Source: a virus (lineage: Duplodnaviria; Heunggongvirae; Uroviricota; Caudoviricetes). From it: a stretch of 43,127 bases of DNA. Location of the stretch: the IMG/VR virus record IMGVR_UViG_2562617113_000019. One strand, 5' to 3'. The position numbers were made by a program. Positions 12,001-15,000 of the stretch are shown here, in pieces (position 1 is the first letter of the stretch; every line of letters begins with the position of its first letter).

Positions 12001-15000
12001 GAGCCGAAAGTTGTATCGGTAGCGAAAACATCTGGTAAAGCCTTTCCTCAGCCAGCCGGTGTTGCGTTACCAGTACAGGAAGCGGCAACACAGGAAGAAA
12101 TTAAAACAGATACTGTGGGGGACATTGTGCAGTCACTACCATCGTTCACTGAAACGCGAGCCAATGACCTGATTTTACCATCGCTGCAAATGGCAAACCG
12201 CGAACTGCGCCGGGCGAAAAGTCATGTCCAGAAGTGGGAGCGAGTCTGCGCCGCTCTGCGTGAGCTGAACAAGCACCAGGATATTGTCCGACAGATTGTC
12301 GATTCCTCCAGTCGTATTGTGTCGGAAAAGTGATTCCTGGGGAGGGCTTATGGCAAAAGTATTTACACAGGAAGAGCGAGGAAAAAATTAAAGGGCAGAT
12401 TGTTGATCTCGTACGCCAGAGCGGGCGAGAGACGTTACGACAACTGGAAGCTAAAATGGGGGCAACCAGATATCTGATAAGTATTCTCGCCAAAGAGCTG
12501 GTTTCGAGTGGTGAAGTATACAACTCTGGCTATGGGTTATTCCCGTCAGAACAGGCTCGTAAGGACTGGCAAAACGCCCGCAAAAAACTATCGAGGGCAA
12601 AGTCGAAGGAACCGGCTATGGTTGATCCTGACCTTATCTGGTCATTACCAGACGGAGAAATACGCCGCTACGACAGGTGTCAGAACATAATTTGTCGCGA
12701 GTGCCGGAAGAGTGAAGTTATGCAGCGTGTATTAGCATTTTATCAGGGAAATGTTCGGTATTTATTGAAGTGACGAGATTAAAGACCATTAATTCATATG
12801 TGAATTGACATTTTCATGGCACAGGATATAGCTAGCGTGGTTGTCTGTTTTGTACCATAAGCGGAAGTAGCTAACAACAGTTTGTGTGGAGCAACTGGGA
12901 GCAGGTCGGAACCACCGTGAACGAAAAGTAGAAAATCAACATATAGTAAAGCTTGAAAAATTAGTTCAACTATTATTATAGTGCTTTCGATGTTGTTAAA
13001 TGCGATCTGAAATCACTAAGAAAACTCGCTATAACGGCGTGCAAAGATTACTTAACTGAAATATTGATCTGTATATTTAAACGGAGTTAGTATGTCAGAC
13101 ACACAGAAAAACATTGATTTAATAAAAGATATTAATGAAATAGCCGAGAAAGGCATACAGGCTTTTGAATTGTCATATAGTGAATCTGGGCACCCAAATC
13201 TTCACGAGCCACTTTTGAGATGGTGCGATTTTATTTTACGATATATACCCCCAGTGAAACGTGATGTTTTTAAATCGGATCGATTCACTAAAAACATTCC
13301 AGATGATGCAAAAGCGGGATTGCAAAGAATAGAGGGATTATTTACTTCAGGTGGCGATGTCAATCCTTACCAGAGTAAAACATTGACATTATTGAATGAC
13401 ACAAGCGGTAAAAAAGCTGCGCAAAGAACGGATAACCTTTGGGCTGATTGGGGCATTCACCATCTTCACCTGTCATTAAACCCAGTTGGTTCAGGTGAAA
13501 AATACTCAGACCGCTCAGAATGGGTGTTATTCCTGAAGGTGTATGCTAATGCTGTTTTATTTATTGATATAAAAAGCCATGATAAAGACATCGAACCCAA
13601 CCTTTTTTCTCAAAAAGACTTGATTGAAACATTTATACGCAACTGGCCAGATGAGGCAGGAGTGTATGAGATGAAAGGTGTTTCAAAGCTGGCAATTAAC
13701 CAACCAATTACCGATGCAGACATCGCAAAATTGAGAAAGAATGGAATAAATCTCCCCTTTGAGGCAAACGGGAAGGTTTATGCACCATTAGGTATGGGAA
13801 TGACGACTGCTGTAACCTCTATGAGAGTTTCAATTTATAGAGATAAAATATGTAATTGGGCTAAACAAATAGAAGGCATATTCATGGATGAAGATGGCCC
13901 ATTCCTGAAGGAAGTGAAATCTCAGAATGTACAAAACCCTAAATTCGAATTGTATATGTATGATGGTGATATGTTCGGCATTACTGAGAAAAATATTGAT
14001 AAAGGCTGGATATTCACTAGAGGTAAATCCGACAACGTTTTCAGCTGTTTATTTGACTCATTGATGCCTGTGTGGGCCAGTCCTGTTGTATTGCAGTACT
14101 GGAAAAAGAACCCATAACAAAACGGTTTGACGAACCGAGACCCTCATGCCACCGTTCATATGGCGCGACGAATAATGATAAGTATGCCGCGCCATACGTT
14201 CAAATAAACATACAAGCATCAGTATAAACGTGCAGGCATACCGGTGCTTATATGATTAGACACATCATGGGGTTGACCTGCTCCCTGTTAATTATCACAG
14301 AACGCTTTTAGCAATGTCTGCTCATCGCTCACAGCGGACCTTCAACTCTGGTAACTTGTCCGCTTCGTGCCAAGAGCGGACATCAGGTACATCTTTTCTG
14401 GTCATACCTAGCAGTAGTCTAGCGTCAATTCGCATAAATAAGATACCGTTAGAAATACAAAGATCTGTTAATATGCAAATGAAGTAATAAATGGTGAAGC
14501 CCCAACTTACAGAGAGGAGCATCGCACCGTGAAGCTGTACATAATTGGAAACGGATTTGATTTACACCATGGTCTTGATACCAGCTATTTTTCTTTTGCC
14601 TATTTTCTGCGATCGCGCCAGAGGGATTCGTACAACAACTTAGTTGAGTTTGTCGGTTTCACAGACCTACCTGAAAATCTTGATGAACTGAATAAGGATG
14701 AACATCCTCTGTGGTCTGAATTTGAAAGTAATCTGGCATGGTTAAATTCTCAGGCCGTACTGGATGCATTTACCGATTCTCTCCCAAATCTGGGTGACCC
14801 AGATTTTCGTGATAGATACTGGCATGCTTTTGATATTGAAATGCAGCGAATCCTTGAAAATTTAACTGATGATCTTTTCACCCAGTTTACGTCGTTCATT
14901 TCCCAAGTTAAATATCCAGAGCTTACCTCTGATAAAACACTGCAACTATACAGTAACGGCATATTTATAAATTTCAATTACACCAGAACTATTGAGTACT

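What the first reader, a model, noticed from the sequence alone, without database searches (positions are those of the whole stretch)
13092..14117. Unclassified 341-aa protein as first gene of the island
A long uninterrupted ORF with its own roughly 320-bp AT-rich upstream region and no similarity I can assign. An inverted repeat TATGGCGCG...CGCGCCATA lies downstream at about 14159-14197. Its position beside an AbiH-like gene makes a defence or toxin role plausible but unproven.
Basis: inference. Interest (0 to 1): 0.55.

Follow-up and report, generated by a model that had tools for sequence, protein, structure and literature searches.

The report
Known PD-T4-7 anti-phage defence gene
The "unclassified" 341-residue protein belongs to PD-T4-7, a single-gene defence system already shown to protect E. 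coli from T4-like phages by abortive infection; here it is the first gene of a defence-gene slot in a Rac-type prophage, so the finding is real but already known.

Summary
The ORF at 13092-14117 (+) is real: 341 aa, with a chance of about 7e-12 of staying open at random. It is not unclassifiable. It matches the PADLOC model for PD-T4-7 end to end (E 6.4e-141, 467 bits). It is 69% identical over its full length to the E. coli P2-prophage allele that is most likely the protein validated by Vassallo et al. 2022 (a single gene giving abortive-infection defence against T-even phages).

No neighbouring gene is conserved in 48 independent loci. AbiH is absent from all of them, so the gene acts alone and AbiH is only a neighbour. 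It opens a roughly 6-kb variable cargo slot (12858-18887) that carries other defence genes in a sister prophage.

The downstream inverted repeat exists but is at chance level and is not conserved.

The likely mechanism is inferred, not shown: a self-inhibited RelE-like RNase is released by phage infection and shuts down translation.

Verdict: already known; low interest.

The parts
12858..18887 (.). Variable cargo (defence) slot of a Rac-type lambdoid prophage, between the DUF977/Ren-like gene and hokD/sok. It holds four genes: PD-T4-7, AbiH, a 290-aa unknown and a SIR2 protein (PADLOC candidate PDC-S25).
   Evidence: Backbone homology to sister prophage L020 ends at 12857 and resumes at 18888/19107. 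Twenty other E. coli genomes match only 12774-12857. GC is 38.7% against 49% in the backbone. In L020 the same slot carries an anti-phage dGTPase, an MBL hydrolase and a DUF4145 protein.
12953..12982 (+). Candidate sigma-70 promoter of the gene (TTGAAA, 18 nt, TATAGT), followed by a leader of about 100 nt.
   Evidence: It matches the consensus at 10 of 12 positions, although the region holds no more such sites than chance. Both hexamers are conserved in the P2-type allele (L002) while the spacer has substitutions. About 190-240 bp upstream of the ATG is co-inherited with the ORF at roughly 75% identity, the same as the coding region. The position fits the at least 167 bp of upstream DNA that sufficed in the validated clone. 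Function is inferred.
13083..13086 (+). Ribosome-binding site GGAG, 5 nt before the ATG.
   Evidence: Read directly from the sequence. It is conserved in L002 and L012.
13092..14117 (+). PD-T4-7 family gene, 341 aa plus stop (RefSeq WP_001406923.1, annotated 'hypothetical protein').
   Evidence: PADLOC PDLC04066: E 6.4e-141, 467 bits, residues 1-340 against profile 1-336 of 337. It is 69% identical over its full length to P0007, which scores 477 bits on the same model. The window is 100% identical to E. coli NADC1036.
13209..13586 (+). Conserved N-terminal core (residues about 40-165) containing the RelE/ParE (BECR)-type fold. Elements: beta1 58-61, helices 63-66 and 71-86, a conserved loop 87-114, helix 115-120, beta2 122-126 (GIHHLHL), beta3 144-150, beta4 154-162. 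Candidate catalytic residues are D114, H124, H126, R141, D159 and H163.
13587..14114 (+). C-terminal alpha/beta domain (residues 166-341) with no recognisable fold relative. It is the proposed regulatory or sensor domain and contains the conserved loop G234-x-G236-x-T-T-A-x-T242.
14159..14196 (.). No function is supported.
   Evidence: it is present, but at chance level, has no T-tract, and is not conserved in other contexts.
14314..14384 (.). Twin-hairpin intergenic element (two copies of GTCCGCT-N10-AGCGGAC) in the spacer before AbiH. It may mark the cassette junction or act as a terminator. It is not part of the protein's function as far as shown.
   Evidence: Fold energy is -34.9 kcal/mol, z -3.6. 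It is present in 685 of 5,426 E. coli genomes and never annotated. It lies between unrelated cargo genes in Rac, Qin and P2 prophages and in CP4-type islands. There is no Rfam match.

Best explanation
The ORF encodes a member of the PD-T4-7 family, a stand-alone, single-protein abortive-infection defence carried as cargo in a prophage hotspot.

Proposed mechanism:
1. The gene is transcribed from its own promoter in the lysogen.
2. The N-terminal half is a RelE/BECR-fold ribonuclease. Its active site is built from invariant D114, H124 and H163, assisted by H126, R141, D159 and R57.
3. In uninfected cells the faster-evolving C-terminal domain of the same polypeptide keeps the nuclease inactive. 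There is no separate antitoxin.
4. Infection by a T-even-type phage relieves this inhibition, directly or indirectly.
5. The nuclease then cuts RNA, most likely mRNA on the ribosome as RelE, YafQ and YoeB do. Translation stops, and the infected cell dies or arrests before phage are released.

Shown here: family membership, the fold, the conserved residues, the single-gene architecture and the hotspot location.
Taken from the literature, for a homolog: defence against T4-type phages and the Abi phenotype.
Inferred: RNase activity, its target, autoinhibition by the C-terminal domain, and the trigger.
For: **Family membership**
- Full-length PADLOC PD-T4-7 match.
- 69% identity to the P2-prophage E. 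coli allele P0007. P0007 has the length of the validated CDS (352 aa), comes from the same species and sits in a P2-like prophage, the commonest of the genomic contexts the paper reports for its systems.
- P0007 and the window protein score 477 and 467 bits on the same model.

**Published phenotype**
- PD-T4-7 is a single CDS. Cloned with its native promoter it protects against T4, and it is grouped with the TA-like systems that give Abi defence.

**Toxin fold**
- The AF2 model is confident.
- hhalign against a YafO family profile aligns residues 58-161 with YafO 2-104 and puts GIHHLHL on VAHIHLA, though weakly (E 0.019).

**Catalytic-type residues**
- D114, H124 and H163 are invariant; R57, H126, R141 and D159 are at least 90% conserved down to 25% identity.

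**Stand-alone gene**
- No conserved neighbour in 48 loci.
- Contexts vary.
- The apparent half-proteins are contig-end fragments or disrupted genes.

**Regulatory C-terminal half**
- It is always fused.
- The full-length model has a pTM of 0.86.
- It evolves faster than the N-terminal half in 103 of 104 homologs.

**Defence location**
- The same slot carries an anti-phage dGTPase in a sister prophage.
- Homologs sit beside GmrSD, a PvuRts1I-like enzyme and an AAA_15 ATPase.
Against: - No experiment exists for this allele. The tested protein is at most about 69% identical, and I could not retrieve RRN43039.1 itself to confirm that P0007 is its cluster.
- The RelE/ParE fold also houses non-nuclease gyrase poisons.
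- I could not obtain coordinates, so the clustering of the invariant residues into one site is not verified.
- Nothing shows that the C-terminal domain inhibits or senses. It matches no known antitoxin or sensor.
- The paper recorded no escape plaques for PD-T4-7, and none of the papers found here identifies a trigger.
Confidence: 0.6

Rival explanations
1. The BECR-fold domain is a ribosome-independent nuclease that cuts a specific stable RNA (a tRNA anticodon loop or rRNA), as colicins E5 and D do, or as the unrelated PrrC/RloC anticodon nucleases do in T4 defence. It would not be an A-site mRNA interferase.
For: - The BECR fold class includes colicin E5/D tRNases and Barnase/EndoU (PMC11980606).
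- YafO, the family picked by the published HHpred search and by my hhalign, may cleave independently of the ribosome (footnote in PMC11980606).
- The His/His/Asp set fits a general acid-base RNase that needs no ribosomal help.
- The large conserved insertion (residues 87-114) and the extra domains would have to be compatible with A-site entry, which is not obvious.
Confidence: 0.2
2. The RelE/ParE-like domain is not a nuclease. It acts as a ParE-type protein poison (for example of DNA gyrase) or purely as a binding module, and kills or blocks phage by another route.
Confidence: 0.1
3. The 341-aa protein and the adjacent AbiH-like protein (and perhaps the next genes) form one multi-gene defence system, as the first reader suggested testing.
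For: The genes are adjacent and on the same strand, with a 411-bp spacer. The four-gene island is identical in all eight places where the exact protein occurs.
Against: - AbiH, the 290-aa protein and the SIR2 protein are absent from all 48 independent loci that encode homologs.
- No neighbour family is shared by more than 4 loci, and that one is a serine resolvase.
- The validated PD-T4-7 is one CDS.
- AbiH matches the AbiH models of Pfam and PADLOC on its own.
- The spacer holds an element that separates unrelated cargo genes elsewhere.
- The eight identical islands are copies of one prophage and are not independent evidence.
Confidence: 0.03
4. The gene is an inactive or non-defensive passenger in this particular prophage, silent or serving the prophage's own biology rather than host immunity.
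For: The prophage shows some decay (sieB is frameshifted). This allele occurs in only 1 of 5,426 complete E. coli genomes. Expression has not been shown.
Against: - The ORF is intact, with every family-invariant residue.
- The RBS and the promoter-like site are conserved.
- The exact protein was seen on 54 contigs, and the index lists it in 109 blocks of the collection.
- Copies at least 90% identical occur in Citrobacter, Klebsiella, Enterobacter, Yersinia, Salmonella and Pantoea, which indicates recent spread under purifying selection.
Confidence: 0.07

Closest known systems
PD-T4-7 (Vassallo et al. 2022, Nat Microbiol; PMC9519451). Validated CDS RRN43039.1 from E. coli UMB0103. PADLOC models PDLC04066 and PDLC04065.
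   Same: - Full-length match to the family model.
- Same two-part architecture, and a single gene with its own upstream region.
- Prophage hotspot location.
- 69% identity, with a shared promoter-like site and RBS, to the P2-type E. coli allele.
   Different: - It is a different allele (341 against 352 aa; 31% of residues differ, mostly in the C-terminal half: 61% identity there against 79% in the N-terminal core).
- It sits in a Rac-type lambdoid prophage slot instead of the P2 hotspot.
- It is untested experimentally, so phage specificity may differ.
RelE/ParE (BECR-fold) type II toxins: RelE, YoeB, HigB, YafQ, YafO.
   Different: - About three times larger.
- A conserved insertion of about 30 residues lies between the helices and beta2.
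- It has extra N-terminal helices and a 176-residue C-terminal domain.
- It has no adjacent antitoxin gene.
- It has no significant sequence match to any of the Pfam toxin families.
- It is not covered in the survey of multidomain BECR toxins (PMC11980606 has no occurrence of PD-T4).
CapRel(SJ46), a fused toxin-antitoxin defence protein (PMC9712102).
   Same: This is a functional analogy only. Both are one polypeptide with an N-terminal toxin domain and a C-terminal domain. Both are prophage-borne, give Abi-type defence and target translation. In CapRel the C-terminal domain autoinhibits and binds a phage protein (as summarised).
   Different: The toxin fold is unrelated (a RelA/SpoT-type pyrophosphokinase against a RelE-like fold). 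No homology exists between the C-terminal domains. Autoinhibition and trigger binding are unproven for PD-T4-7.
Cami1 (CARF-RelE fusion, CRISPR type III accessory ribosome-dependent RNase; PDB 8phb).
   Different: In Cami1 the sensor is a CARF domain that binds cyclic oligoadenylate. The PD-T4-7 C-terminal domain has no CARF or other recognisable fold and has no CRISPR association.
AbiH (Pfam PF14253), the neighbouring gene.
   Same: It lies in the same cargo slot of the same prophage, and is likewise a single-gene abortive-infection family.
   Different: There is no sequence or structural relation, and it does not co-occur with PD-T4-7 homologs elsewhere (0 of 48 loci).

Membership tests
PD-T4-7 defence system | Full-length match to the family's profile HMM (PADLOC PDLC04066/04065). 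| tested here: met
   E 6.4e-141, 467 bits, residues 1-340 against profile 1-336 of 337. The score equals that of the P2-type E. coli allele (477 bits).
PD-T4-7 defence system | High full-length similarity to the experimentally validated protein (RRN43039.1, 352 aa, E. coli UMB0103). | tested here: inconclusive
   It is 69% identical over 342 columns to P0007. P0007 is a 352-aa E. coli protein in a P2-like prophage and is most likely the validated cluster. The accession itself could not be retrieved for confirmation.
PD-T4-7 defence system | Single-gene system with no obligatory partner. | tested here: met
   No neighbour family is conserved in 48 loci. The largest covers 4 loci and is a serine resolvase.
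PD-T4-7 defence system | Carried in prophage or mobile-element hotspots among other defence genes. | tested here: met
   The Rac-type slot has alternative defence cargo. Homologs lie beside GmrSD in a P2 hotspot and beside a PvuRts1I-like enzyme and an AAA_15 ATPase in an integrase island.
PD-T4-7 defence system | Protects against T4/T-even phages by abortive infection. | not testable with these tools
   Reported for the validated homolog only. It needs plaque and MOI assays with this allele.
RelE/ParE (BECR-fold) toxin superfamily | [quoted passage not shown] | tested here: met
RelE/ParE (BECR-fold) toxin superfamily | [quoted passage not shown] | tested here: not met
   No such Pfam hit for the protein or for any of 68 homologs at E <= 10. 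hhalign against a YafO alignment gave E 0.019 and probability 2.4%. The published HHpred probability was 51%.
RelE/ParE (BECR-fold) toxin superfamily | Conserved catalytic-type residues on the sheet face (RNase members). | tested here: inconclusive
   D114, H124 and H163 are invariant, and R57, H126, R141 and D159 are at least 90% conserved. They fall on or next to beta2, beta3 and beta4. Spatial clustering and equivalence to RelE or YafQ residues could not be checked without coordinates.
RelE/ParE (BECR-fold) toxin superfamily | Adjacent cognate antitoxin gene (type II TA operon). | tested here: not met
   No conserved small neighbouring ORF in 48 loci. The upstream gap holds no ORF of 50 aa or more.
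RelE/ParE (BECR-fold) toxin superfamily | RNA cleavage (ribosome-dependent for most RNase members) or gyrase poisoning. | not testable with these tools
   This needs biochemistry.
Fused toxin-antitoxin defence proteins (CapRel-like logic) | The C-terminal domain is homologous to a known antitoxin or is a demonstrated autoinhibitor/sensor. | tested here: not met
Phage tail-sheath-like domain (published HHpred label for PD-T4-7 residues about 193-241) | Structural or significant sequence similarity to sheath/TssC proteins. | tested here: not met
   - The published probabilities were only 18-28%.
- Pfam Phage_sheath_1 is hit by 2 of 68 members, best E 0.014.
- No sheath protein appears in the BFVD search.
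AbiH-containing multi-gene system | Conserved co-occurrence with AbiH. | tested here: not met
   0 of 48 independent loci.

The most novel reading that the evidence does not exclude
The C-terminal 176 residues may be a previously undescribed fold that acts as a built-in phage sensor. In this reading it holds a RelE-type RNase inactive and releases it on direct binding of a T-even phage protein. PD-T4-7 would then be a single-chain pattern-recognition effector of a new kind, in a family with more than 3,000 sequence clusters and no Pfam entry.

A second, separate possibility is that the twin-hairpin element in the downstream spacer (14314-14384) is a junction or recombination site used to swap defence cassettes between unrelated mobile elements.
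Probability: 0.3. Interest if true: 0.55.

Novelty: already known. Interest (0 to 1): 0.25.

Why it matters
For genome annotation, this shows that a protein labelled "hypothetical" in RefSeq, in all 51 complete E. coli genomes that carry the family, is a recognisable member of a validated anti-phage system. It also shows that the slot between the DUF977/Ren-like gene and hokD of Rac-type prophages is a defence hotspot with interchangeable cargo.

For the PD-T4-7 family, the work here:
- puts the tentative "RelE-like" label on firmer structural ground;
- names a small set of invariant residues (D114, H124, H163) to mutate;
- withdraws support for the "sheath-like" label;
- shows that the C-terminal half has no known fold and evolves fast.

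The family's mechanism and trigger are still unknown. None of this changes the basic picture: it is a known kind of system in an expected kind of place.

Tried and rejected
1. **General family libraries.** Pfam, NCBIfam and PHROGs gave nothing for the protein. A Pfam scan of all 68 aligned homologs at E <= 10 gave no toxin family.
2. **PDB by sequence.** A profile search gave only ankyrin/DARPin noise on the GDVNPYQS motif.
3. **YafO by sequence.** hhalign against YafO alone gave nothing. Against a 25-sequence YafO alignment it gave a colinear but statistically weak alignment. I treat it as inconclusive, not as evidence of membership.
4. **Sheath-like C-terminal domain.** Rejected.
5. **Natural split or stand-alone domains as evidence of a two-component ancestry.** Rejected: the "half" proteins are a contig-end fragment and a disrupted gene. 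P0084 (N-terminal 130 residues fused to DUF1780) is a singleton from a 3-kb contig, and I did not build on it.
6. **A specially conserved 5' leader or RNA element.** Rejected: leader identity equals coding identity in the closest allele and decays to background by 64% protein identity. Rfam gave no hit.
7. **The flagged inverted repeat as terminator or regulatory site.** Rejected: chance level and not conserved.
8. **Partnership with AbiH.** Rejected.
9. **Homologs in deposited phage genomes.** None in 50,697 records. Only 10 distant plasmid hits.
10. **AFDB50 fold search.** The library was unavailable.
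Full report
**1. The observation**

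The ORF is there as described: 13092-14117 on the + strand, ATG start, 341 codons. With the ORF's own base composition, the chance that 341 codons stay open is about 7e-12. A GGAG ribosome-binding site ends 5 nt before the ATG. The upstream gap to the previous gene (12774-13091) is 318 bp at 36% GC.

The inverted repeat TATGGCGCG/CGCGCCATA is at 14159-14167 and 14188-14196. It is unremarkable:
- 35% of shuffles of the 1.9-kb region contain at least one 9-nt perfect inverted repeat.
- No T-run follows it, and the local fold has z = -1.2.
- It is not found downstream of homologs in other contexts.

The neighbouring gene at 14529-15506 is a clear AbiH (Pfam E 3.3e-58).

**2. Where the window comes from**

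The region is 100% identical to E. coli NADC1036 (NZ_CP076264.1). There the protein is WP_001406923.1, annotated "hypothetical protein".

The window is a Rac-type lambdoid prophage next to ttcA. Its gene order is: intR, xisR, ralR/RalA, recET, kilR, sieB (frameshifted), a cI-like repressor, cro, ydaT, an O-like initiator, a lambda-P-like protein, DUF1627 and DUF977/Ren-like genes, then the finding, and after the island hokD/sok and the late genes.

Homology to a sister prophage in strain RM9513 (L020) stops at 12857 and resumes at 18888/19107. Twenty other E. coli genomes likewise match only 12774-12857. So 12858-18887 is a cargo slot of about 6 kb at 38.7% GC, in a backbone of about 49% GC. 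The ORF is indeed its first gene.

In RM9513 the same slot carries an anti-phage dGTPase, a hypothetical protein, an MBL-fold hydrolase and a DUF4145 protein. In this window it carries the finding, AbiH, a 290-aa unknown and a SIR2 protein that matches the PADLOC candidate PDC-S25 at E 6.7e-143. This is a defence hotspot with interchangeable contents.

**3. What the protein is**

Pfam, NCBIfam and PHROGs give nothing. The PADLOC library matches PD-T4-7 end to end: PDLC04066, E 6.4e-141, 467 bits, residues 1-340 on profile positions 1-336 of 337.

PD-T4-7 is one of 21 systems recovered by functional selection from E. coli isolates by Vassallo et al. 2022 (PMC9519451):
- It is a single CDS (RRN43039.1, strain UMB0103, 1059 bp), cloned with its native promoter.
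- It was selected on T4.
- It is listed among the TA-like systems that give abortive infection.
- It is labelled "RelE toxin-like".

The homolog search found a 352-aa E. coli/Salmonella cluster (P0007, 264 members) that is 69% identical to the window protein over the full length. P0007 scores 477 bits on the same PADLOC model. It sits in the P2 prophage hotspot beside GmrSD. This agrees in length, species and prophage type with what the paper describes. I could not retrieve the accession itself, so "P0007 is the validated protein" remains very likely rather than proven.

The P2-type allele occurs in 48 of 5,426 complete E. coli genomes. The family occurs in 51, all annotated "hypothetical protein". 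The Rac-type allele of this window occurs in 1. The exact protein was nevertheless seen on 54 contigs, and copies at least 90% identical occur in Citrobacter, Klebsiella, Enterobacter, Yersinia, Salmonella and Pantoea.

An exhaustive profile search finds 3,380 cluster representatives (at 50% identity) with E <= 1e-3, and 852 with E <= 1e-30. In the species-level genome scan they are mostly Beta- and Gammaproteobacteria. Members also occur in Fibrobacter, Nitrospirota, Myxococcota, Geobacteraceae, Acidobacteriota and Clostridium. The family has no Pfam entry.

**4. Anatomy: the N-terminal half**

The published "RelE-like" label rests on an HHpred hit to YafO_toxin at 51% probability (residues 118-164) and to YafQ at 11%. 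I tested it.

By sequence it stays weak:
- No member of a 68-sequence alignment hits any toxin Pfam model at E <= 10.
- A profile search of the PDB finds nothing relevant.
- hhalign against a 25-sequence YafO alignment gives E 0.019 and probability 2.4%. The alignment is colinear over residues 58-161 against YafO 2-104, and it places GIHHLHL on VAHIHLA.

By structure it is clear:
- The AlphaFold2 model built from the alignment is confident (pLDDT 86.6, pTM 0.86).
[quoted passage not shown] A conserved insertion of about 30 residues (87-114) precedes beta2.

In 105 sequences down to 25% identity, the invariant residues are D114, H124, H163 and G236. R57, S62, G87, D89, N91, L116, W120, H126, R141, D159, P186, R215 and G218 are at least 90% conserved. 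H124 and H126 lie on beta2, R141 just before beta3, D159 on beta4 and H163 just after it. From general knowledge of RelE, YafQ and YoeB, these are the strands that carry catalytic residues in the RNase members. This mapping is my inference, because I had no model coordinates.

**5. Anatomy: the C-terminal half**

Vassallo et al. describe "a phage-sheath-like domain", based on HHpred probabilities of 18-28%. I find only noise-level traces of this:
- 2 of 68 members hit Phage_sheath_1, best E 0.014.
- No sheath protein appears in the viral library.

That label is not supported.

The C-terminal half evolves faster than the N-terminal core: mean identity to homologs is 26.3% against 41.7%, and it is lower in 103 of 104. 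Two conserved loops have low model confidence: residues 101-114, and 231-242 (GMGxTTAxT). They are candidates for mobile functional elements, and I have no explanation for them.

**6. A single gene, with no link to AbiH**

In 48 independent loci encoding homologs, tblastn finds no AbiH, no 290-aa protein and no SIR2 protein within 6 kb. Clustering all neighbouring ORFs of at least 40 aa within 2.5 kb shows the widest-spread family in 4 loci only, and that family is a serine resolvase.

Contexts differ completely:
- a P2 hotspot with GmrSD;
- a Providencia integrase island with a PvuRts1I-like/SRA enzyme and an AAA_15 ATPase;
- chromosomal sites in Burkholderia and Methylophaga.

The eight places that hold the exact protein all carry the same four-gene island. 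These are copies of one prophage and are not independent evidence.

Apparent N-only and C-only proteins from the exhaustive search are a contig-end fragment and a disrupted gene. The two halves therefore seem to be obligately fused.

**7. The mobile unit**

Between the window and the P2-type allele, about 190-240 bp upstream of the ATG is conserved at roughly 75%, the same as the coding region (76%). That stretch includes both hexamers of a promoter-like site (TTGAAA-18-TATAGT, 12953-12982) and the RBS. Downstream sequence is unrelated.

By 64% protein identity the leader is at background, and Rfam finds nothing. So there is no sign of a special RNA element.

The promoter position (-139 to -110) lies within the at least 167 bp of upstream DNA that sufficed in the validated clone. 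An own promoter would allow expression in the lysogen, independent of the phage pR operon. This is an inference.

**8. Mechanism**

The best-supported reading has these steps:
1. The protein is a self-contained abortive-infection effector.
2. Its N-terminal RelE/BECR-fold domain is an RNase with a His/His/Asp site (D114, H124, H163).
3. The fused C-terminal domain keeps it off in uninfected cells, since no antitoxin gene exists and the validated homolog is tolerated when cloned as a single gene.
4. T-even infection switches it on.
5. RNA cleavage, most likely of mRNA on the ribosome, stops translation.

Family membership, fold, conserved residues, single-gene architecture and hotspot location are shown here. 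The phenotype is taken from the paper, for a homolog. RNase activity, target, autoinhibition and trigger are inferred.

A 2024 survey states that the mechanism "remains to be elucidated". The 2025 survey of multidomain RelE/ParE toxins does not mention the family. The paper's supplementary table records no escape plaques for PD-T4-7.

Rival readings are:
- a ribosome-independent tRNA or rRNA nuclease (0.2);
- a ParE-like non-nuclease (0.1);
- a silent passenger gene (0.07);
- a joint system with AbiH (0.03).

**9. Verdict**

However, this is an already described defence family that standard defence-annotation models recognise at once.

What is added here:
- structural support for the RelE-type fold;
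- a short list of invariant residues;
- removal of the sheath label;
- evidence that the C-terminal half has no known fold and evolves fast;
- the definition of a Rac-prophage defence slot.

Interest is low to moderate (0.25). The open points are the unknown trigger and the uncharacterised C-terminal domain.

**10. Side observation**

The spacer before AbiH holds an element of about 72 nt (14314-14384) made of two tandem GTCCGCT-N10-AGCGGAC hairpins.
- It is very stable as RNA (-34.9 kcal/mol, z -3.6).
- It is present in 685 of 5,426 E. coli genomes and never annotated.
- It has no Rfam match.
- It always lies between unrelated accessory genes, in Rac, Qin and P2 prophages, CP4-type islands and a SIR2/restriction island.
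- In ten copies, 3 of 14 pairs show compensatory changes.
- The window holds only one copy.

It may be a terminator or a cassette junction. This is unresolved, and it may be more novel than the ORF itself.

Noticed in passing
window 14314-14384 (also L020:10810-10857, L060:4001-4082, L061:4001-4073, L063-L067 around 2501-2570): An intergenic element of about 72 nt made of two tandem GTCCGCT-N10-AGCGGAC hairpins. As RNA it folds at -34.9 kcal/mol (z -3.6). It is present in 685 of 5,426 E. coli genomes (723 places), is never annotated and has no Rfam family. It always lies between unrelated accessory or defence genes in different mobile elements (Rac, Qin and P2 prophages, CP4-type islands, a SIR2/restriction island). 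It may be a terminator or a cassette-junction/recombination site. In 10 copies, 3 of 14 pairs show compensatory changes.
   Followed up: partly
window 17009-18517 (-): A 502-aa SIR2_2-domain protein matches the PADLOC candidate (unvalidated) system PDC-S25 over its full length (E 6.7e-143) and PHROG 2695. It is the last gene of the same cargo slot, sits in the lowest-GC stretch of the window (31-35%) and is transcribed convergently to the other three genes.
   Followed up: no
window 15747-16619 (+): A 290-aa protein (274 aa in RefSeq) just after AbiH has a Gly/Ala-rich, membrane-like N-terminal segment. It has no family assignment beyond a weak PADLOC LeoBC hit (E 3.7e-5). It is absent from all other PD-T4-7 loci. 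Whether it belongs with AbiH was not examined.
   Followed up: no
window 12858-18887 against L020:9085-14862: The slot between the DUF977/Ren-like gene and hokD/sok of Rac-type prophages is a variable defence hotspot. This window carries PD-T4-7, AbiH, an unknown and SIR2. Strain RM9513 carries an anti-phage dGTPase, a hypothetical protein, an MBL-fold hydrolase and a DUF4145 protein.
   Followed up: partly
window about 21928-23179 and 24783-25917 (+): RefSeq annotates two AB-type toxin gene pairs in the prophage late region, flanking the lysis cassette. One pair is a scabin-related ADP-ribosyltransferase with a subtilase-family AB5 binding subunit. The other is an enterotoxin A family protein with an enterotoxin B-like subunit. 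Both lie in low-GC patches (35-39%). Coordinates were converted from L001.
   Followed up: no
window 9830-11119 (+): The prophage replication-initiator-like protein combines DUF1376 and DnaT DNA-binding domains with an inserted T5orf172/MUG113 (GIY-YIG-related) domain at residues about 126-193. Sister prophages use a different replication module (a hypothetical protein plus an IstB/DnaA-like ATPase) at the same place.
   Followed up: no
window 1557-1735 and 19214-19389: Two RNA antitoxins reach their Rfam gathering scores: RalA (197 bits, next to ralR) and sok (105 bits, next to hokD). The prophage therefore carries two type I toxin-antitoxin loci, one on each side of the immunity/replication/defence region.
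   Followed up: no
residues 101-114 and 231-242 of the ORF (window 13392-13433 and 13782-13817): These are two of the most conserved stretches of the family: NDTSG...RTD, and GMGxTTAxT with invariant G236. They are also the least confident parts of the otherwise confident structure model (pLDDT 55-72 and 61). This suggests mobile, functionally important loops.
   Followed up: no
P0084 (298 aa, one 3-kb metagenomic contig): One protein joins the first 130 residues or so of a PD-T4-7-like protein (up to the GIHHLHI strand) to a DUF1780 'putative endonuclease' domain (Pfam E 2.7e-15). It could be a domain swap or an assembly chimera.
   Followed up: no
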